Part shown: piece by piece, positions 1,138 to 7,003 of the stretch
Layout: each line of letters begins with the position of its first letter
Numbering within the stretch: position 1 is the stretch's first letter
DNA from: a virus
Taxonomy: Duplodnaviria; Heunggongvirae; Uroviricota; Caudoviricetes
IMG/VR virus record: IMGVR_UViG_2703718791_000006
Coordinates: 1-7,301 of that record
Length of the DNA stretch: 7,301 nucleotides
Strand: one strand, 5' to 3'
Position numbers and translations under genes: made by a program
The notes under the pieces: generated by a model
What the model was told of the DNA's origin: nothing
The model's input: the letters and a program-made list of their open reading frames with translations, nothing else
The model's database searches: none

Positions 1138-2882
1138 AACTGGCACCGAACGTAAAAAAACAGCCACGCGGAATAAAACACAAAGACACAGAGGTAATTA
1201 TCTTTGCGGGTAGTGATGCCTGGTCGCACGCGAAACAATGGCAGGAGCAGGATGGCCCCGCATCCGGCGATAATGTGCCGCCTGTGTGGCTTGGGCCAAA
1301 GCAGCTTGCCGAACTTGATGCGCTGAAAATTGTTCCGGATGGGAAAAAGCGCGTAAGGCTGTACCAGGCCGGAGAACTAGATTTAGTGGAGACCAAAAAG
1401 ATTGGTCAGAAGCTGGCGGCGGCAGATATTCAGGACGCAAATTTTTACCACGAAGGAATGCACGTCCAGAAGTGTGAAAACTGGCGGCGCTATCTGAATG
1501 CTGAGCGTGAAAATATTGCCGCAGGGCTTACCATGCCGGAGCAGAAAAATACGCAACTGGCACAAATGGCAGACAGTGAGCGCGCACAGATGCTTGCTGG
1601 TCGATTTGATGGCGTTTGTGTGCATCCGGAAAGTGAAATCGTTCACGTATGGCGCGGCGGGGTATGGTGTCCGGTCAGCACAATGGAACTTAGCCGCGAA
1701 ATGGTGGCGATCTATTCAGAGCACAGGGCCACTTTCAGCAAGCGCGTAATCAATAACGCCGTGGAAGCGTTAAAAGTTATTGCCGAACCAATGGGCGAGC
1801 CGTCCGGCGATTTGCTGCCGTTCGCCAATGGTGCGCTTGACCTGAAAACGGGGGAATTTTCCCCGCACACGCCGGAGAACTGGATCACCACGCACAACGG
1901 CATTGAGTACACGCCACCAGCACCAGGGGAGAATATCCGCGACAACGCGCCAAACTTTCATAAATGGCTTGAGCACGCAGCCGGAAAAGACCCGCGCAAG
2001 ATGATGCGTATATGTGCCGCGCTGTACATGATTATGGCGAACCGGTACGACTGGCAGATGTTTATTGAGGCCACCGGAGACGGCGGGAGCGGTAAAAGTA
2101 CATTCACACACATAGCCAGCCTTCTGGCAGGGAAACAGAACACGGTAAGCGCTGAAATGACATCGCTTGATGATGCTGGTGGACGTGCGCAGGTTGTCGG
2201 GAGTCGTCTTATCGTCCTGGCTGACCAGCCGAAATATACAGGCGAAGGAACGGGCATCAAGAAAATCACGGGCGGCGACCCCGTGGAAATTAACCCGAAA
2301 TATGAGAAGCGTTTTACGGCGGTAATCAGGGCGGTGGTGCTGGCTACCAACAATAACCCGATGATATTCACCGAACGGGCCGGAGGTGTGTCACGTCGTC
2401 GCGTAATTTTCCGTTTCGACAATATCGTCAGTGAGGCCGAAAAAGACAGGGAGCTACCGGAAAAGATTGCGGCTGAAATCCCTGTCATTATCCGCCGATT
2501 GCTGGCGAACTTTACCGACCCTGAGAAGGCACGGGCTTTACTACTGGAACAGCGTGACGGTGATGAAGCTCTGGCAATAAAGCAACAGACGGATCCGGTT
2601 ATTGAGTTTTGCCAGTTCCTGAATTTTCTGGAGGAAGCACGCGGCCTGATGATGGGCGGCGGTGGCGATTCAGTGAAGTACACGACCAGGAACAGCCTTT
2701 ACCGCGTCTATCTGGCGTTTATGGCATACGCAGGCAGGAGCAAACCGCTAAACGTGGCTGAGTTCAGCAAGGCCATGAAGCCAGCGGCGAAAGTTTACGG
2801 GCATGAATATATTACGCGAAAAGTTAAGGGAGTAACGCAGACCAACGCAATTACAACAGACGATTGCGACGCGTTTTTATAA
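1134..2882 (+). CDS. replication protein: P4-alpha / D5-type superfamily-3 helicase (phage/plasmid primase C-terminal-domain family)
   Basis: 582-aa ORF with Walker A GDGGSGKST (about nt 2079-2105) and a Walker B-like hydrophobic run ending in Asp (RLIVLADQ) in a central NTPase region, flanked by N- and C-terminal extensions as in P4-alpha/D5-family proteins. Last gene of a coupled operon and immediately followed by an iteron array. Whether a primase domain is present cannot be settled by eye. Confidence 0.7.
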   Translation: MKLAPNVKKQPRGIKHKDTEVIIFAGSDAWSHAKQWQEQDGPASGDNVPPVWLGPKQLAELDALKIVPDGKKRVRLYQAGELDLVETKKIGQKLAAADIQDANFYHEGMHVQKCENWRRYLNAERENIAAGLTMPEQKNTQLAQMADSERAQMLAGRFDGVCVHPESEIVHVWRGGVWCPVSTMELSREMVAIYSEHRATFSKRVINNAVEALKVIAEPMGEPSGDLLPFANGALDLKTGEFSPHTPENWITTHNGIEYTPPAPGENIRDNAPNFHKWLEHAAGKDPRKMMRICAALYMIMANRYDWQMFIEATGDGGSGKSTFTHIASLLAGKQNTVSAEMTSLDDAGGRAQVVGSRLIVLADQPKYTGEGTGIKKITGGDPVEINPKYEKRFTAVIRAVVLATNNNPMIFTERAGGVSRRRVIFRFDNIVSEAEKDRELPEKIAAEIPVIIRRLLANFTDPEKARALLLEQRDGDEALAIKQQTDPVIEFCQFLNFLEEARGLMMGGGGDSVKYTTRNSLYRVYLAFMAYAGRSKPLNVAEFSKAMKPAAKVYGHEYITRKVKGVTQTNAITTDDCDAFL

Positions 2883-3165: not shown

Positions 3166-3480
3166 ATGCGCATACATCAAAATCACTTAACAAACATGCC
3201 AGCCGAAAACATGAATCAGGGGCGACAAATGACCAAAATTCGCAGAGACAGAACAGAGCCAAAATATAAAGCGTTAGACATGACTGAGCATACCTTAAAG
3301 GTGGCAATCAGAACGATAGACCGCCACACGCGGGAAGGATACGCGAAGGAACATCCCGACCTGATAAGCGCATTCATGACCACAGCGGCGGCAAACTTTG
3401 CCACGCTGACAGAACGGGAGATTGCCGAAGCGGAACAGGTAACAACCATCAACGTTAAAACCGGAGAGGTGGAATCATGA
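3166..3480 (+). CDS. hypothetical protein, 104 aa, coupled to ssb
   Basis: ATG 3166 about 8 nt downstream of AGGGGGTG. Stop TGA 3478-3480 overlaps the ssb ATG at 3477. Alternative internal starts exist. No family recognised. Confidence 0.5.
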   Translation: MRIHQNHLTNMPAENMNQGRQMTKIRRDRTEPKYKALDMTEHTLKVAIRTIDRHTREGYAKEHPDLISAFMTTAAANFATLTEREIAEAEQVTTINVKTGEVES

Positions 3481-3887
3481 CAGCACAGATAGCCGCTTAC
3501 GGGCGGCTGGTGGACGACCCGCAGGTAAAACAGACCAGCAAGGGCACACCGATGACGCTGGCGCGTATGGCGGTCCCCCTTCCGTGCAGCCAGGCAGATG
3601 ACGGAACGGCTACGTTATGGCTATCGGTGATGGCATTTGGTAAGCAGGCCGACTTCCTGGCTAAACATCAAAAAGGCGACGTTGCCAGCATATCTGGCGT
3701 GATGCAGATAAGCCAGTGGACCGGACAGAACGGGGAAACGCGGCAGGGTTATCAGGTTATTGCAGACAGCGTAATCAGTGCCCGTGCGGCACGTCCTGGC
3801 GGGAACAGACGCAAAACCACAGGCGCACAGGGTAATCAGCCACCAGCGGGAGACGATGACCCCTACGGTGATGATATTCCGTTCTGA
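3477..3887 (+). CDS. ssb: single-stranded DNA-binding protein (short OB-fold SSB with acidic C-terminal tail)
   Basis: 136 aa. N-terminus GRLVDDPQV resembles E. coli SSB GNLGQDPEV, and an aromatic/Gly-Lys OB-fold block (WLSVMAFGKQA versus WHRVVLFGKLA) follows. A Gly/Pro/Gln-rich linker ends in DDDPYGDDIPF, the canonical SSB tail. Good SD (GGAGAGGTGG) upstream. Confidence 0.85.
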   Translation: MTAQIAAYGRLVDDPQVKQTSKGTPMTLARMAVPLPCSQADDGTATLWLSVMAFGKQADFLAKHQKGDVASISGVMQISQWTGQNGETRQGYQVIADSVISARAARPGGNRRKTTGAQGNQPPAGDDDPYGDDIPF

Positions 3888-3895
3888 ACGCACAG

Positions 3896-3919
3896 GCCGG
3901 AGAAAATCCGGCTTTTTGT
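3896..3919 (+). terminator. rho-independent terminator after ssb
   Basis: GCCGGA-gaaaa-TCCGGC hairpin (6-bp GC-rich stem) followed by TTTTT, 9 nt after the ssb stop. Confidence 0.6.
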
Positions 3920-3923
3920 ACCC

Positions 3924-3970
3924 AAAAAAAGCCCGATAAGTACAGGAGGAAGCTTATCGGGCTTTTGCTT
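3924..3970. terminator. second, possibly bidirectional, terminator hairpin
   Basis: 10-bp stem GCCCGATAAG/CTTATCGGGC with a 12-nt loop, A-run upstream (3924-3930) and TTTTG downstream. Confidence 0.45.
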
Positions 3971-4040: not shown

Positions 4041-4091
4041 TTGCGCAAAATGCAATCATGATTATAATCATAACTGGATGAACATCCAGTT
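4041..4091 (+). promoter_or_regulatory. candidate sigma70 promoter with two palindromic operators ahead of the capsid operon
   Basis: -35 TTGCGC (4041-4046), 16-bp spacer, -10 TATAAT (4063-4068). Perfect 14-bp palindrome ATGATTATAATCAT (4058-4071) overlaps the -10. Perfect 9-2-9 inverted repeat AACTGGATG-AA-CATCCAGTT (4072-4091) lies just downstream. Confidence 0.45.
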
Positions 4092-4124: not shown

Positions 4125-4331
4125 ATGGCAGAAGAGAAAAAAGGCGGTGTTTCGGTGTACATAAGCCCCGAAATCGTGGAGGTGCTCAAGCAGCGCCACA
4201 AAAAAAACTATGAGGCTGGCGTAGCGGCTGGACTGGATCCGCTGATGACGCCGGAGCCGTCGATAGGTTCACTTGTGCGCTCTTATTTACTTGCGGCGCT
4301 TGGGATGCATAAAAATTATGGGGGTGAATAA
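4125..4331 (+). CDS. hypothetical small protein, 68 aa; possible ribbon-helix-helix DNA-binding protein
   Basis: N-terminal GGVSVYISPEIVEVLKQ fits a beta-strand plus helix pattern as in Arc/CopG-type RHH proteins, and a second helix SIGSLVRSYLLAALG follows. Stop TAA 4329-4331 overlaps the capsid ATG (TAATG). The fold assignment is a guess from sequence pattern only. Confidence 0.5.
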   Translation: MAEEKKGGVSVYISPEIVEVLKQRHKKNYEAGVAAGLDPLMTPEPSIGSLVRSYLLAALGMHKNYGGE

Positions 4332-5386
4332 TGGCAGGCAAAGCAACGGCACTTAACACTAACCAGCTTTTTGCGTACCTGAATCGCGGGGATATTGCGG
4401 AATTTAAATTTAGTCCGCTGTTTACCACGCTGTTTTTCCCGAAAGTAGCGACATTCAACACCCAAAACATCATGCTGGATAACCTGGACACCGAAGAAGT
4501 CACTATGTCAGCGTTTTGCTCGCCTATGGTTGGTAGCCAGGTACAGCGCGATAAAGGGTACGAAACCAGCACGATTAAACCTGGCTACATGAAGCCAAAG
4601 CACGAAATCGATCCAACAAAAACCATCATGCGCATGGCTGGAGAAGATCCGGCACAGCTTAACGACCCAACCTATCGCCGTATGCGCCTGATTACTGGCA
4701 ACATGCGCCGCCAGGTAAACGCTATTAAAGCGCGTGTTGAATGGCTGGCGGTAAATGCGGTAACGACCGGAAAAAACATCATTGAGGGCGAAGGCATAGA
4801 GCGCTATGAAATCGACTGGAAGATACCGGAAAAAAACATCATAGAGCAGGCCGACGGGAAAAAATGGTCAGAGCAGGACAAAGAAACCCACGATCCAATC
4901 TATGATATCGAACTATACGCCGATCAGGCTGGTTGCCCCGCAAACGTCATGATTATGGGCGCTGAGGTATGGCGAACGTTACGCAGCTTTAAAAAATTCC
5001 GTGAGCTGTACGATCTTTCCCGTGGTTCAGAGTCCGCCGCAGAGCTGGCCTGTAAAAACCTGGGCGAAGTGGTGAGCTTTAAAGGCTATCTGGGCGATAT
5101 TGCCCTTATCGTCTATTCCGGCAAATACGCCGACAGCGACGGCACCGAAAAACATTTCCTTGAGCCTGATTTGCTGGTCTTGGGCAACACCAACAATAAA
5201 GGGCTGGTTGCTTATGGTGCGATTATGGATCAGGAAGCGGTAAGAACGGGCGCAACGCAAAACATGTACTACCCGAAAAACTGGATTGAGGACGGCGATC
5301 CGGCGATTGAGTACGTGCAGACGCACAGCGCACCGCAGCCGGTGCCGGCAGACATTCGCAAATTTGTTACCGTCAAAATTGGTTAA
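4331..5386 (+). CDS. major capsid protein, lambda gpE family (HK97 fold)
   Basis: 351 aa, colinear over its full length with lambda gpE (341 aa) as recalled. Conserved blocks: FKFSPLF versus FKFDPLF; PGYMKPKHEIDP versus PGYVKPKHEVNP; DPTYRRMRLITGNMR versus DPAYRRRRIIMQNMR; RGSESAAELACKNLGEVVSFKGYLGDIALIVYSGKY versus RGSNSELETAVKDLGKAVSYKGMYGDVAIVVYSGQY; YPKNWIEDGDPAIEY versus YPKNWVTTGDPAREF. SD GGGGTGA upstream. Confidence 0.9.
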   Translation: MAGKATALNTNQLFAYLNRGDIAEFKFSPLFTTLFFPKVATFNTQNIMLDNLDTEEVTMSAFCSPMVGSQVQRDKGYETSTIKPGYMKPKHEIDPTKTIMRMAGEDPAQLNDPTYRRMRLITGNMRRQVNAIKARVEWLAVNAVTTGKNIIEGEGIERYEIDWKIPEKNIIEQADGKKWSEQDKETHDPIYDIELYADQAGCPANVMIMGAEVWRTLRSFKKFRELYDLSRGSESAAELACKNLGEVVSFKGYLGDIALIVYSGKYADSDGTEKHFLEPDLLVLGNTNNKGLVAYGAIMDQEAVRTGATQNMYYPKNWIEDGDPAIEYVQTHSAPQPVPADIRKFVTVKIG

Positions 5387-5397
5387 CGGGGGATTCT

Positions 5398-5733
5398 ATG
5401 AACACTCCATACATTGAGTTATTTGCAGGCAGTCAGCAGGTATCCACGACGCTGGTACATTTTGCCGCTGATGCTGGCGTCATTCAGGAATTTACCCCGC
5501 TGATGCTGGCGGACAATGGCGAGTTTAAGCCGTGGGATGGTCAGGCGTCCGGAAAGGCTGTTTATCTGACTTCGTACCCCGTGGACACGTCAAAGCAGAA
5601 ATCAGCACAGTGCTACAAGACGGGGATCTTTAATATCGCCGCCGTGAACTGGCCCGAGAGCGTCGACACCGATGCGAAAAAATGCGCCGCCTTTGCGGGT
5701 TCTGGCGTATCCGTTCAGCCGCTGGCCCGATAA
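5398..5733 (+). CDS. head decoration protein, lambda gpD family
   Basis: 111 aa versus gpD 110 aa. Shared blocks: TPLMLAD / TPLMLD, WDG, YKTGIFN..WPE / YKSGTF..WPE, KKCAAFAGSG / KKRTAFAGT. SD GGGGGAT upstream. Gene order is capsid then decoration, the reverse of lambda's D then E. Confidence 0.8.
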   Translation: MNTPYIELFAGSQQVSTTLVHFAADAGVIQEFTPLMLADNGEFKPWDGQASGKAVYLTSYPVDTSKQKSAQCYKTGIFNIAAVNWPESVDTDAKKCAAFAGSGVSVQPLAR

Positions 5734-5745
5734 GCAGGGGGAACG

Positions 5746-6159
5746 ATGGCAACGAATGAAAGCATCATGACGCTACCGCTGGCGAGTAAATTTAAAGCCG
5801 AAGCGCGAGCAATGGCTGACAGAGGTTTATCAACCTACGAGGCCGTATATCAACTCAACAAACTGGAAGAGCAGGACAAGCCGCGCGCTGATGCGATTAT
5901 GGCGCTTCATGAGCATAACGACTATCAGCCGCTGTTACGTGCAATGGCAAACGTGCCTTGTATCGATGTTGGTACGGCTAAAAGCATCCTTAGCATGACC
6001 ATAGAGCAGGAACGCCAGAAGGTTGCGCCGGAGCTTACCGCAGCCTTTGAAAACTTTATGGACATGCACAGCCCGCAAGCCGTTTCAGCTGGCATGGCAT
6101 ACGACGGCAGAAACCCGGGCGATGATGGCGACATCGAGCGCATACTGAAAACCATCTGA
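5746..6159 (+). CDS. hypothetical protein, 137 aa, last gene of the capsid operon
   Basis: Strong SD AGGGGGA before ATG 5746 and a terminator directly after the stop. No convincing similarity to lambda FI, FII or Nu3 as recalled. Confidence 0.6.
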   Translation: MATNESIMTLPLASKFKAEARAMADRGLSTYEAVYQLNKLEEQDKPRADAIMALHEHNDYQPLLRAMANVPCIDVGTAKSILSMTIEQERQKVAPELTAAFENFMDMHSPQAVSAGMAYDGRNPGDDGDIERILKTI

Positions 6160-6165
6160 GACAAG

Positions 6166-6188
6166 GCCGGAGAAATCCGGCTTTTTTT
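6166..6188 (+). terminator. rho-independent terminator after the capsid operon, abutting cosQ
   Basis: GCCGGA-gaaa-TCCGGC hairpin followed by TTTTTTT. Near-identical to the terminator at 3896-3919. Confidence 0.6.
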
Positions 6189-6265
6189 ACGGGTCCTTTC
6201 CGGCATATGGACCCGTTACGGGGCGGCGACCTCGCGGTTTTTCGCTATTTATGACGTTTTTCCGT
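6187..6265 (+). other. lambda-type cos site, copy 1 (cosQ, cosN, I2-like proximal cosB)
   Basis: TTTACGGGTCCTTTCCGG (6187-6204) matches the lambda right-end cosQ region. GGGCGGCGACCT (6221-6232) is identical to the lambda 12-nt cohesive end, and the 17-bp spacing between them is kept. The following CGCGGTTTTTCGCTATTTATGA closely matches the lambda left end CGCGGGTTTTCGCTATTTATGA. No ATGTCCGGTT-type repeats before the terS start. Confidence 0.75.
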
Positions 6266-6321: not shown

Positions 6322-6756
6322 ATGATTGATAAAGCTTGTTTTGTAAGTCAGCAGGAAATAGCTGAACATTTCAAGGTTAACAGAACCACTATTCGCGCAT
6401 GGACCAAACAGGGGATGCCGTATCTTAATGCGGATCGCGGAAAGTCCGGCGGTTATCACATCGGGCATACATTGCTTTGGTCTTCAGGTAAAAGCCATCT
6501 TGAGGCCATTGGATATCACGTAGAAACCAGTGCGCTGGAAAAAATTATGTTTGCCAGGCTGCTTTCATCTGAGCGTGACGAGTACTCCAGTGAAGAAACA
6601 GAACATCGATTTGATGAAGGTTTGCAGATTTACGGATATTCACCGGAAGATGTGAGCAAGGCACGAAATAAAATGGCTGGCTTTCTGGCTGGGTGGCGTC
6701 ATGCCGTAAGCGTTCGCCGTGCCAGCATGGAGCAATCAGCCGATACAGAACAGTAA
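6322..6756 (+). CDS. small terminase-like protein, phage Nu1 family (N-terminal winged-HTH DNA-binding domain)
   Basis: 144 aa. N-terminus SQQEIAEHFKVNRTTIRAWTKQGMPYL parallels lambda Nu1 KKQLADIFGASIRTIQNWQEQGMPVL. It is shorter than Nu1 (181 aa) and diverges after the HTH. It sits about 90 bp downstream of the cos copy 1 cohesive end, where lambda has Nu1. Confidence 0.75.
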   Translation: MIDKACFVSQQEIAEHFKVNRTTIRAWTKQGMPYLNADRGKSGGYHIGHTLLWSSGKSHLEAIGYHVETSALEKIMFARLLSSERDEYSSEETEHRFDEGLQIYGYSPEDVSKARNKMAGFLAGWRHAVSVRRASMEQSADTEQ

Positions 6757-6924: not shown

Positions 6925-7003
6925 TCCCGAAAAATTTTCATAAATAGTGAAAACGCGCGAGGTCGCCGCCCCGTAACGGGCCATAATTCCAGGAAGGACC
7001 CGA
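6925..7003 (-). other. second lambda-type cos site, inverted (cosQ-like, cosN, I2-like)
   Basis: Bottom strand reads CGGGTCCTTCCTGG..CGTTACG-GGGCGGCGACCT-CGCGCGTTTTCACTATTTATGAAAATTTTT. The cohesive-end 12-mer occupies 6960-6971 on the minus strand. 6956-6980 is a perfect 25-bp inverted repeat of 6212-6236, with imperfect similarity continuing on both sides. The cosQ-like element differs from lambda at a few positions. Confidence 0.65.

What the first reader, a model, noticed from the sequence alone, without database searches (positions are those of the whole stretch)
4331..5733. Full-length lambda gpE-like capsid protein and gpD-like decoration protein, in reversed order and without visible assembly partners
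Both proteins are colinear with their lambda counterparts over the whole length but clearly divergent. The order is capsid then decoration, whereas lambda has D then E. No protease or scaffold gene sits upstream, only a 68-aa possible RHH protein. A satellite-encoded capsid variant could co-assemble with or replace the helper capsid protein on helper portal and scaffold to build smaller shells sized for a small genome. That would be a different size-redirection route from P4 Sid external scaffolding or SaPI CpmB internal scaffolding.
Basis: partly seen in the sequence, partly recalled or inferred. Interest (0 to 1): 0.85.

Follow-up and report, generated by a model that had tools for sequence, protein, structure and literature searches.

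The report
Known satellite capsid operon, with scaffold
The capsid-like and decoration-like genes are real, but they are the already-described c1499/c1500 genes of an EcCICFT073-type phage satellite of E. coli; a scaffold-like gene sits right after them, and laboratory work shows the operon is not needed for transfer and that packaged DNA is phage-sized, so its natural role is still open.

Summary
ORF 4331-5386 is a full-length lambda gpE-type capsid protein (44% identity) and ORF 5398-5733 is a gpD-type decoration protein, in E-then-D order. It is not new. The window is an EcCICFT073-family phage-inducible chromosomal island (PICI), about 92% identical in DNA to the CFT073 island. These genes are the published c1499/c1500, and c1499 has a crystal structure (PDB 3BQW).

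"No assembly partners" is wrong. The next ORF (5746-6159, c1501) is homologous to the C-terminal part of lambda scaffold Nu3. It is followed by a terminator, a lambda-like cos site and rppA.

The size-redirection idea has a precedent (Ccm of SaPIbov5). Published work on EcCICFT073 argues against it: packaged DNA is phage-sized, c1499 and c1500 deletions have no phenotype, and an island with c1498-c1501 replaced by cas9 is still transduced.

Added here:
- Satellite E and D form their own clades (200/200 bootstrap), always in E-then-D order.
- They are under strong purifying selection (dN/dS about 0.1).
- The module is in 590 of 5,426 complete E. coli genomes and in no phage record.
- The operon appears to have a LexA-box promoter.

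Best reading: an SOS-controlled auxiliary shell module used with helper portal, protease and terminase. Its function in nature is unproven.

The parts
3896..3968 (+). Two terminator-like hairpins after ssb, forming the upstream boundary of the capsid operon
   Evidence: Read directly from the sequence: GGCCGGAGAAAATCCGGCTTTTT and GCCCGATAAG...CTTATCGGGCTTTTG.
4041..4068 (+). Sigma-70-like promoter, TTGCGC-N16-TATAAT
   Evidence: Sequence reading. Conserved in CFT073, STEC434 and a Salmonella island. Inferred, not tested.
4072..4091 (+). LexA-box-like palindrome AACTGGATGAACATCCAGTT immediately after the -10 element
   Evidence: Scores 21.0 bits with a weight matrix built from recalled E. coli SOS boxes, equal to the median of those boxes. 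The next-best site in the window scores 6.5, and the highest score in 300 shuffles is 20.8. The Salmonella island L004 keeps the site at 19.9 bits.
4125..4331 (+). 68-aa ORF (homologue of c1498), translationally coupled to the capsid gene; function unknown, RHH-like topology possible
   Evidence: phrog_3255, 8.5e-46. Homologues occur only in these islands. Model pLDDT is 70 with no significant fold match.
4331..5386 (+). Satellite-lineage lambda gpE-type major capsid protein (homologue of c1499, PDB 3BQW)
   Evidence: Pfam Phage_cap_E 2.2e-52. 44% identical to lambda E. Matches PDB 3BQW at 6e-232. dN/dS 0.08-0.14.
5398..5733 (+). Satellite-lineage gpD-type head decoration protein (homologue of c1500)
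   Evidence: Pfam HDPD 5.6e-18. 36% identical to lambda D. dN/dS 0.04-0.15. Its tree is congruent with the E tree.
5746..6159 (+). Nu3-type scaffold homologue, C-terminal domain only (homologue of c1501)
   Evidence: phrog_1999 6e-65 and phrog_53 (positions 495-567 of 583) 5.5e-8. Lambda Nu3 hits phrog_1999 at 2.7e-26. hhalign 93% probability, E = 2.7e-7. All-helical model with a flexible C-terminal tail.
6165..6188 (+). Intrinsic-terminator-like hairpin plus a run of seven T, marking the end of the capsid operon
   Evidence: Sequence reading. The pattern scan did not list it.
6221..6232 (+). Exact lambda cosN 12-mer (cos1), upstream of rppA
   Evidence: The flank matches lambda for about 35 nt and then diverges, as published for EcCICFT073.
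6322..6756 (+). rppA, the redirecting-phage-packaging protein
   Evidence: 99% identical to CFT073 c1503. Matches RppC (PDB 6HLK) at 4e-32. Its Nu1-like HTH matches lambda Nu1 at E = 4e-6.
6960..6971 (-). Second exact cosN 12-mer (cos2), in inverted orientation

Best explanation
Identity (shown): the finding is the capsid operon of an EcCICFT073-family Gram-negative PICI. It is one transcription unit, bounded by terminators. Its parts, in order, are a promoter with a LexA-type operator, a 68-aa ORF, a gpE-type capsid protein, a gpD-type decoration protein and a Nu3-type scaffold domain. A lambda-like cos site and rppA follow.

The E and D genes belong to an old lineage found only in satellites. 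That lineage always has the order E then D, and it is under purifying selection as strong as on the island's own primase.

Mechanism (inferred): after SOS induction, LexA cleavage turns the operon on. The satellite then makes its own cognate shell set of capsid protein, internal scaffold and decoration protein. These assemble on the helper's portal and are processed by the helper's protease. They form, or contribute subunits to, normal-sized lambda-type heads.

The helper terminase, redirected by RppA to the island's cos site, fills these heads with phage-length concatemers of the roughly 11-kb island. On this reading the module is an auxiliary head supply or a helper-compatibility device. It could help, for example, with helpers whose own E gene is interrupted, defective or limiting. 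It is not a size-redirection device, and it is redundant with good laboratory helpers.
For: Identity:
- The window is about 92% identical in DNA to CFT073 and 97% to STEC434, with int and alpA just upstream in those loci.
- c1499, c1500 and c1501 are the 351-, 111- and 137-aa proteins, and 3BQW matches the capsid protein.

Scaffold homology.

Cognate set:
- The satellite/phage split has 200/200 bootstrap for both E and D, and the two trees are congruent.
- Order is E then D in all 13 satellite loci and D then E in all prophage loci.
- The E N-arm and the D N-terminus are the most divergent regions between clades. In lambda these two elements pair in one beta-sheet (PMC5701804).
- 16 of 24 fixed differences fall in two blocks of E, and the scaffold tail motif differs by clade.

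In use in nature: dN/dS is 0.08-0.14 for E against 0.06-0.20 for the primase. The module is annotated intact, in the rows listed, in 590 of 5,426 complete E. coli genomes and is in no phage record.

SOS control.

Normal head size and helper dependence:
- Packaged DNA is phage-sized and helper TerS is required (PMC6092414).
- All known helpers have lambda-type B, C, D and E genes.
- Satellites inserted in the helper's own E gene carry their own E and D (L008, L010, L044; PMC10111431).
Against: - No experiment shows the satellite proteins in particles.
- Deleting c1499 or c1500 changed transfer by the native helper at most about two-fold.
- Replacing c1498-c1501 with cas9 still gave transducing particles with phi80. 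Any contribution is therefore dispensable with lambda, phi80 and CFT073 prophage 4.
- The Nu3-like gene is missing from some satellite lineages (L004; L007-L011 and L044), so a scaffold is not always part of the set.
- The LexA box rests on a weight matrix built from recalled sequences, and it is absent at this position in the 55-63% tiers.
- The helper's own Nu3 may already serve the satellite E protein.
Confidence: 0.45

Rival explanations
1. Size redirection. The satellite capsid protein, together with the Nu3-like protein acting as a competing internal scaffold, builds small heads. This would happen only with certain natural helpers that have not been tested.
For: - Precedents exist: Ccm, a capsid homologue, and CpmB, an alternative scaffold sharing the helper scaffold's C-terminus (PMC6893505; reference list).
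- PmCI172 makes small capsids and encodes a capsid homologue.
- The Nu3-like protein keeps the scaffold C-domain but has its own N-terminal part and its own tail motif.
- The field still lists the Gram-negative small-capsid mechanism as unknown (PMC12409344).
Against: - With lambda, all packaged DNA was phage-sized. With the native CFT073 helper there was no island-monomer band.
- The tetA-marked island used in that work has intact c1499-c1501 ORFs, because the cassette sits immediately after the c1501 stop codon.
- Deleting c1499 or c1500 did not relieve interference.
Confidence: 0.15
2. Complementation or back-up. The module exists mainly to replace capsid functions that are missing. This would apply when the satellite sits inside the helper's E gene, or when the only available helpers are defective lambdoid prophages.
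For: - Helper-embedded satellites inserted in E carry their own E and D (L008, L010, L044). The back-up idea was raised in PMC10111431.
- Rows listed for the module include O157:H7 and O26 strains. These lineages carry many lambdoid prophages (my own knowledge, not tested here).
Against: - Excision restores the helper's E gene.
- The window's lineage inserts in chromosomal sites, not in phage genes.
- Satellite E and D are only 40-45% and 25-41% identical to phage E and D, so compatibility with helper partners is unproven.
Confidence: 0.15
3. Interference. The satellite shell proteins co-assemble with and poison the heads of lambdoid phages, either non-helper phages or the helper itself.
For: - The proteins are of the same family as the helper's head proteins, so mixed assembly is conceivable.
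- Strong RppA-mediated interference could mask a second, weaker effect.
Against: - Individually expressed island genes other than c1503 did not reduce lambda plaquing.
- Deleting c1503 restored lambda plaque titres nearly to those on cells lacking the island.
Confidence: 0.08
4. Functionless cargo or a decaying remnant of captured phage genes.
For: The operon is dispensable in the laboratory and has been used as an 'adaptable module' for cargo.
Against: - dN/dS is about 0.1.
- The module is annotated intact, in the rows listed, in 590 complete genomes.
- The clade is old, satellite-only and spans several genera.
- The promoter and operator are conserved.
Confidence: 0.03
5. Recent recombination with a co-resident prophage.
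For: None found.
Against: - The best phage match is 47.6% identity.
- There is no DNA-level match in 50,697 phage records.
- The gene order is reversed relative to every prophage examined.
Confidence: 0.01

Closest known systems
EcCICFT073 (E. coli CFT073 PICI): genes c1498-c1503, cos1 and cos2
   Same: Same gene order and content. The proteins are 96% (capsid, decoration, Nu3-like) and 99% (RppA) identical. The cos sites, promoter and operator are the same.
   Different: The 68-aa ORF is only 68% identical. The primase is 91% identical. This island lacks the perC-like gene that CFT073 has between ssb and the operon. The closest relative, in STEC434, is inserted in tqsA rather than next to roxA.
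Lambda head genes Nu3, D and E
   Same: Same protein families. E aligns over nearly its full length, apart from the N-terminal ~23 residues. The Nu3-like ORF is colinear with the last ~85 residues of Nu3.
   Different: The order is E-D-scaffold instead of scaffold-D-E. There is no protease, portal, W, FI, FII or terminase. The scaffold is free-standing rather than nested in a protease gene. Identity is 44% for E and 36% for D, and both proteins fall in satellite-only clades.
Ccm of SaPIbov5 (satellite-encoded capsid homologue)
   Same: A satellite of cos phages encodes a divergent homologue of its helper's major capsid protein.
   Different: Ccm drives small-capsid formation and strong interference, whereas c1499 showed neither. 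Ccm is 23% identical to its helper's capsid protein, against 44% here. Ccm has no partner decoration or scaffold gene.
CpmB of SaPI1 (alternative internal scaffold)
   Same: A small helical satellite protein that shares the C-terminal region of the helper's scaffold. This comparison rests on my knowledge of Dearborn et al. 2017, which appears only as a reference.
   Different: CpmB redirects assembly to small capsids and acts on helper capsid protein. Here no size change has been seen, and the satellite brings its own capsid protein.
Capsid-forming PICIs (cf-PICIs, e.g. EcCIEDL933)
   Same: Same int-alpA-rep backbone, and a satellite-lineage capsid gene that is old and distinct from phage genes.
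   Different: cf-PICIs carry capsid, protease, portal, connectors, HNH, TerS and TerL, and take only tails from the helper. This island has only capsid, decoration and scaffold, plus Rpp. It depends on the helper's TerS (shown for EcCICFT073) and, by inference from the genes it lacks, on the helper's TerL, portal and protease.

Membership tests
Lambda gpE-type major capsid protein (Pfam PF03864) | Profile match above the curated cut-off over the full length | tested here: met
   178.6 bits against a cut-off of 22.9, covering residues 26-349. 44% identical to lambda E over 328 residues.
Lambda gpE-type major capsid protein (Pfam PF03864) | HK97 fold | not tested
   A crystal structure of the near-identical CFT073 protein exists (3BQW). 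Its coordinates were not examined here.
Lambda gpE-type major capsid protein (Pfam PF03864) | Assembles into an icosahedral shell | not testable with these tools
   No particle data exist for the satellite protein.
Lambda gpD-type decoration protein (Pfam PF02924) | Profile match above the curated cut-off | tested here: met
   65.6 bits against a cut-off of 29.1. 36% identical to lambda D over 76 residues.
Lambda gpD-type decoration protein (Pfam PF02924) | Binds as a trimer at capsid three-fold sites through its N-terminus | not testable with these tools
   The N-terminal ~26 residues are the most divergent part relative to phage D.
Lambda Nu3-type scaffold | Sequence homology to the Nu3 / gpC C-terminal region | tested here: met
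   Lambda Nu3 hits phrog_1999 at 2.7e-26. hhalign gives 93% probability, E = 2.7e-7. The profile search recovers tandem-repeat Nu3-like proteins.
Lambda Nu3-type scaffold | Nested in frame within the 3' part of the protease gene | tested here: not met
   It is a free-standing 137-aa ORF after the decoration gene. There is no S49 protease in the island.
Lambda Nu3-type scaffold | Required for procapsid assembly and removed on maturation | not testable with these tools
   No experimental data.
Gram-negative PICI (EcCICFT073 type) | Unidirectional int - alpA - primase/replication backbone in an island of about 10-12 kb | tested here: met
   The primase, DUF4222 and ssb genes are in the window. 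int and alpA lie just upstream in the 97%- and 92%-identical loci L002 and L001.
Gram-negative PICI (EcCICFT073 type) | cos site with lambda-like cosN but its own cosB, plus an Rpp protein | tested here: met
   PMC6739421.
Gram-negative PICI (EcCICFT073 type) | Helper-dependent induction and transfer | not testable with these tools
   Shown experimentally for EcCICFT073 only.
Capsid-forming PICI (cf-PICI) | Encodes portal, protease, connectors, HNH, TerS and TerL as well as the capsid protein | tested here: not met
   No such ORFs in the window or in the full islands L001 and L002. Definition taken.
Ccm-type capsid-homologue size redirector | Satellite-encoded homologue of the helper's capsid protein | tested here: met
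Ccm-type capsid-homologue size redirector | Causes small capsids, and its deletion relieves interference | not testable with these tools
   Published experiments on the 96%-identical c1499 did not find this: packaged DNA was phage-sized and the deletion had no effect (PMC6092414).

The most novel reading that the evidence does not exclude
EcCICFT073-type islands may be 'half capsid-forming' satellites. On this reading their SOS-controlled E-D-scaffold operon builds satellite-specific shells on the helper's portal. That would make them an evolutionary and mechanistic intermediate between classical PICIs, whose particle proteins all come from the phage, and cf-PICIs, which take only tails. The Nu3-like protein would be a satellite-specific internal scaffold. 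With some natural helpers it might also change head size, or allow mobilisation by capsid-defective prophages.
Probability: 0.25. Interest if true: 0.6.

Novelty: already known. Interest (0 to 1): 0.3.

Why it matters
The finding itself rediscovers published genes. What remains interesting is a paradox. About one in nine complete E. coli genomes keeps a satellite-only capsid, decoration and scaffold operon under strong purifying selection, yet the operon can be deleted without effect in every laboratory assay reported.

Two points added here make the question more testable:
- c1501 is a Nu3-type scaffold, so the satellite carries a coherent shell-forming set rather than a stray capsid gene.
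- The operon appears to be directly LexA-controlled.

These suggest three experiments: the protein content of particles, rescue of capsid-defective helpers, and SOS-dependent expression. The answer would show whether there is a continuum between satellites that steal whole capsids and satellites that build their own.

Tried and rejected
1. I suspected the published negative results came from islands with a broken module, because the markers were written 'c1501::tetA' and 'c1499::cat'. Mapping the primer arm showed the tetA cassette sits exactly after the c1501 stop codon (L001 12569-12628), so the ORFs are intact. The idea is rejected for the tetA version. Only the cat version lacks c1499.

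2. NCBI names the 137-aa protein 'phage head-tail connector protein'. No Pfam or NCBIfam model supports this, and the profile evidence points to Nu3, so I rejected the name.

3. The fold search with the Nu3-like model against BFVD found nothing significant. That is uninformative for an extended helical protein.

4. The fold search with the 68-aa model against the PDB found nothing significant. The top hit was a TraM ribbon-helix-helix domain at E = 1.3. The RHH idea is left open.

5. BLASTP of the 137-aa ORF against lambda gpC alone was only marginal (E = 0.13). Profile methods were needed.

6. The scan of species-representative genomes returned many contigs identical to lambda in unrelated taxa. 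These are contaminants and were excluded from the phylogeny.

8. I did not find a paper giving lambda gpE domain boundaries, so the clade-specific blocks of E were not mapped onto a structure.
Full report
**What is in the window**

All sizeable ORFs lie on the + strand. Their assignments are:
- 838-1137: DUF4222 protein.
- 1134-2882: D5_N/DUF5906 primase.
- 3166-3480: a phrog_1231 ORF.
- 3477-3887: SSB.
- 4125-4331: a 68-aa ORF.
- 4331-5386: a 351-aa Phage_cap_E protein.
- 5398-5733: a 111-aa HDPD protein.
- 5746-6159: a 137-aa ORF.
- 6322-6756: a 144-aa HTH protein.

The window is 97% identical in DNA to an island in E. coli STEC434. It is about 92% identical to CFT073 positions 1,380,869-1,388,638. 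In both genomes an integrase and an AlpA-type regulator lie just upstream, and the element sits between chromosomal genes. The CFT073 element is EcCICFT073, the model Gram-negative phage-inducible chromosomal island (PICI).

**Checking the observation**

The capsid-like ORF aligns with lambda gpE at 44% identity over 328 residues, E = 2e-95. Only the N-terminal ~23 residues fail to align.

The decoration-like ORF aligns with lambda gpD at 36% over 76 residues, and its N-terminal ~30 residues are unalignable. The Pfam model nevertheless covers residues 8-103. Lambda's order is C/Nu3, D, E. Here the order is E, then D. These parts of the observation are correct.

The claim that there are no assembly partners is not correct.
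- The 137-aa ORF right after D belongs to phrog_1999 (6e-65). It also matches positions 495-567 of 583 in the head-maturation-protease family phrog_53. That region corresponds to the scaffold end of lambda gpC.
- Lambda Nu3 itself hits phrog_1999 at 2.7e-26, through residues 117-200.
- A profile of the satellite family, searched against 1.8 billion proteins, recovered proteins built of tandem Nu3-type repeats. Those proteins align with lambda Nu3 at 2e-16.
- hhalign of the satellite family against the C-termini of ten phage gpC proteins gives 93% probability and E = 2.7e-7 over 79 columns.
- The predicted structure is all-helical and confident over residues 1-95. A low-confidence linker follows, then a terminal helix carrying the invariant (D/E)RILKTI. 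Phage Nu3 proteins end in DDLLNTPV.
- NCBI's name for this protein, 'head-tail connector', has no profile support.

The 144-aa ORF is RppA. It is 99% identical to CFT073 c1503 and matches RppC (PDB 6HLK) at 4e-32.

Exact lambda cosN 12-mers lie at 6221-6232 (+) and 6960-6971 (−). The first is preceded by a terminator hairpin at 6165-6188. It matches lambda for about 35 nt and then diverges, as published for this island's cosB.

**What is already known**

- Fillol-Salom et al. 2018 (PMC6092414) named c1499 a putative capsid protein and c1500 a head decoration protein. They reported that deleting either affected neither interference with lambda nor transfer by the native helper.
- The same paper reported that DNA packaged with lambda was all phage-sized. 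With the native helper, no island-monomer band appeared.
- c1501 is the 137-aa protein and is left unannotated in their supplementary table.
- Only c1503 (RppA) inhibited lambda when the genes were expressed individually (PMC6739421).
- Mageeney et al. 2023 (PMC10111431) noted that a capsid gene is the commonest late gene in Gram-negative PICIs, present in 21 of 29 reference islands. They also described satellites embedded in their helper's E gene.
- Dokland's 2019 review (PMC6893505) compared these capsid homologues with Ccm of SaPIbov5. It noted that EcCICFT073 is packaged in full-sized capsids.
- Ibarra-Chávez et al. 2020 (PMC10530653) replaced c1498-c1501 with cas9 and still obtained transducing particles with phi80.
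- The crystal structure 3BQW, 'putative capsid protein of prophage', matches the window's protein at 6e-232 with only a few substitutions.

The finding is therefore a rediscovery. Its proposed mechanism has both a precedent and experimental evidence against it for the nearest relative.

**A check on that evidence**

I suspected the marked islands had a disrupted module, because they are written 'c1501::tetA' and 'c1499::cat'. Mapping the published primer arm onto CFT073 shows the tetA cassette lies exactly after the c1501 stop codon. The ORFs are intact in that version, and the negative results stand. One caveat is that the cassette enlarges the island and separates the operon from its terminator and from cos1.

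**New analysis**

Context survey. Homologues of the capsid protein form tiers at 96, 86, 68, 63, 60 and 55% identity. Every tier examined lies in a satellite, with int, alpA, DUF4222, a primase or AAA_25 replication gene and (in most) ssb, and always with E before D. Every prophage examined has Nu1-A-W-B-C-D-E-FI-FII.

The third gene of the module varies between lineages:
- Nu3-like in the 63-96% E. coli tiers.
- Absent in the Salmonella island.
- AlpA-like in the 54-56% tier.

That last tier includes the satellites inserted in their helper's E gene.

Phylogeny. Neighbour-joining trees separate satellite from phage sequences with 200/200 bootstraps for both E and D. The internal topology among satellites is the same in the two trees. 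Satellite-phage identity is 40-45% for E and 25-41% for D. The best match in 50,697 phage records is 47.6% at the protein level, and there is no match at the DNA level.

Selection. At unsaturated distances:

| Gene | dN/dS |
|---|---|
| E | 0.08-0.14 |
| D | 0.04-0.15 |
| Nu3-like | 0.14-0.21 (0.55 in one comparison with very few changes) |
| Primase | 0.06-0.20 |

Prevalence. The four-gene module is in 590 of 5,426 complete E. coli genomes and is annotated intact in the rows listed.

Divergence pattern. Two blocks of E are highly conserved within each clade but differ between clades: residues 128-163 and 329-343. They hold 16 of the 24 fixed differences. The E N-arm and the D N-terminus are the least conserved regions between clades. 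In lambda these two elements pair in one beta-sheet that staples capsomers together (PMC5701804). This pattern fits a co-evolved cognate set, but that is an inference.

Regulation. Two terminator-like hairpins follow ssb. Next comes TTGCGC-N16-TATAAT (4041-4068), and immediately after it the palindrome AACTGGATGAACATCCAGTT (4072-4091).
- A weight matrix built from E. coli SOS boxes, recalled from memory, scores the palindrome at 21.0 bits. That equals the median of real boxes.
- The next-best site in the window scores 6.5, and the maximum over 300 shuffles is 20.8.
- The Salmonella island keeps the site at 19.9 bits, although synonymous sites in its neighbouring genes are saturated.
- The papers I read do not mention LexA control of this operon.

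**Interpretation**

Shown: the identity of the element and its genes; the scaffold homology; the satellite-only lineage with reversed order; purifying selection; and prevalence.

Inferred: the operon is SOS-induced. Its products form, or join, normal-sized lambda-type heads on the helper's portal and protease. Helper terminase redirected by RppA then fills those heads. All known helpers (lambda, phi80, CFT073 prophage 4) have lambda-type head genes, so the partners are of the right families.

Because the module is dispensable with these helpers, its benefit must be conditional. It might provide head supply, compatibility with helpers whose capsid genes are interrupted or defective, or something not yet imagined. 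Size redirection with untested helpers stays possible but is disfavoured. A remnant and recent recombination are both effectively excluded.

**Verdict**

The features are real, and one important part was missed (the scaffold homologue). The finding is already known in the literature, and the proposed mechanism is largely contradicted for the nearest relative. The open question of what this conserved operon does in nature is genuine and moderately interesting.

Noticed in passing
window 4041-4091: Promoter-like TTGCGC-N16-TATAAT followed by a LexA-box-like palindrome AACTGGATGAACATCCAGTT (21 bits). It is conserved in E. coli and Salmonella islands, which suggests direct SOS control of the capsid operon. 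The PICI papers I read do not mention it.
   Followed up: partly
L001 4420; L002 3934; L005 3223: Additional LexA-box-like sites (15.5-21 bits) lie between int and alpA in related islands. This hints that alpA is also SOS-controlled.
   Followed up: no
window 6221-6232 (+) and 6960-6971 (-): rppA is bracketed by two exact lambda cosN 12-mers in inverted orientation. These correspond to the published cos1 and cos2. Why there are two is an open question in the literature.
   Followed up: partly
window 5746-6159: RefSeq and NCBI name this protein 'phage head-tail connector protein' in many genomes. Profile evidence says it is a Nu3-type scaffold domain, so this is a likely misannotation.
   Followed up: yes
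window 2270-2281: A one-mismatch copy of cosN (GGGCGGCGACCC) lies inside the primase gene. It is probably a chance match: 3 matches in total were seen against 0.56 expected.
   Followed up: no
window 4331-5386 compared with 1134-2882, relative to L002: Mosaicism. Against the STEC434 island, the capsid gene has dS 0.29 but the primase only 0.08. The replication and capsid modules therefore have different histories, which implies recombination between islands.
   Followed up: no
P0070 (463 aa, Logan contig): A single predicted protein carries both Phage_cap_E and HDPD domains in E-then-D order. It is either a natural fusion or a read-through or frameshift artefact in a 55%-tier satellite.
   Followed up: no
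L007-L011, L044 (about 10402-10746 in L007): In the 54-56% tier, the gene after D is a second AlpA-like HTH protein (114 aa) instead of a Nu3-like one. It is followed by a full-length Nu1-type TerS instead of Rpp.
   Followed up: partly
L008, L010, L044: These are helper-embedded satellites inserted inside the helper prophage's own E gene. Each carries its own satellite-lineage E and D.
   Followed up: partly
L013-L028, L043, L047-L058: Contigs 100% identical to lambda, many of them short or low-coverage, appear in assemblies of unrelated taxa (Bacillus relatives, Pseudomonas, Shewanella, Akkermansia and others). This is almost certainly lambda DNA contamination of public assemblies.
   Followed up: no
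L001 10091-10339: CFT073 has a PerC-family regulator gene between ssb and the capsid operon. It is missing from the window and from STEC434. One homologue of the 68-aa ORF (P0142) is itself annotated as PerC family.
   Followed up: no
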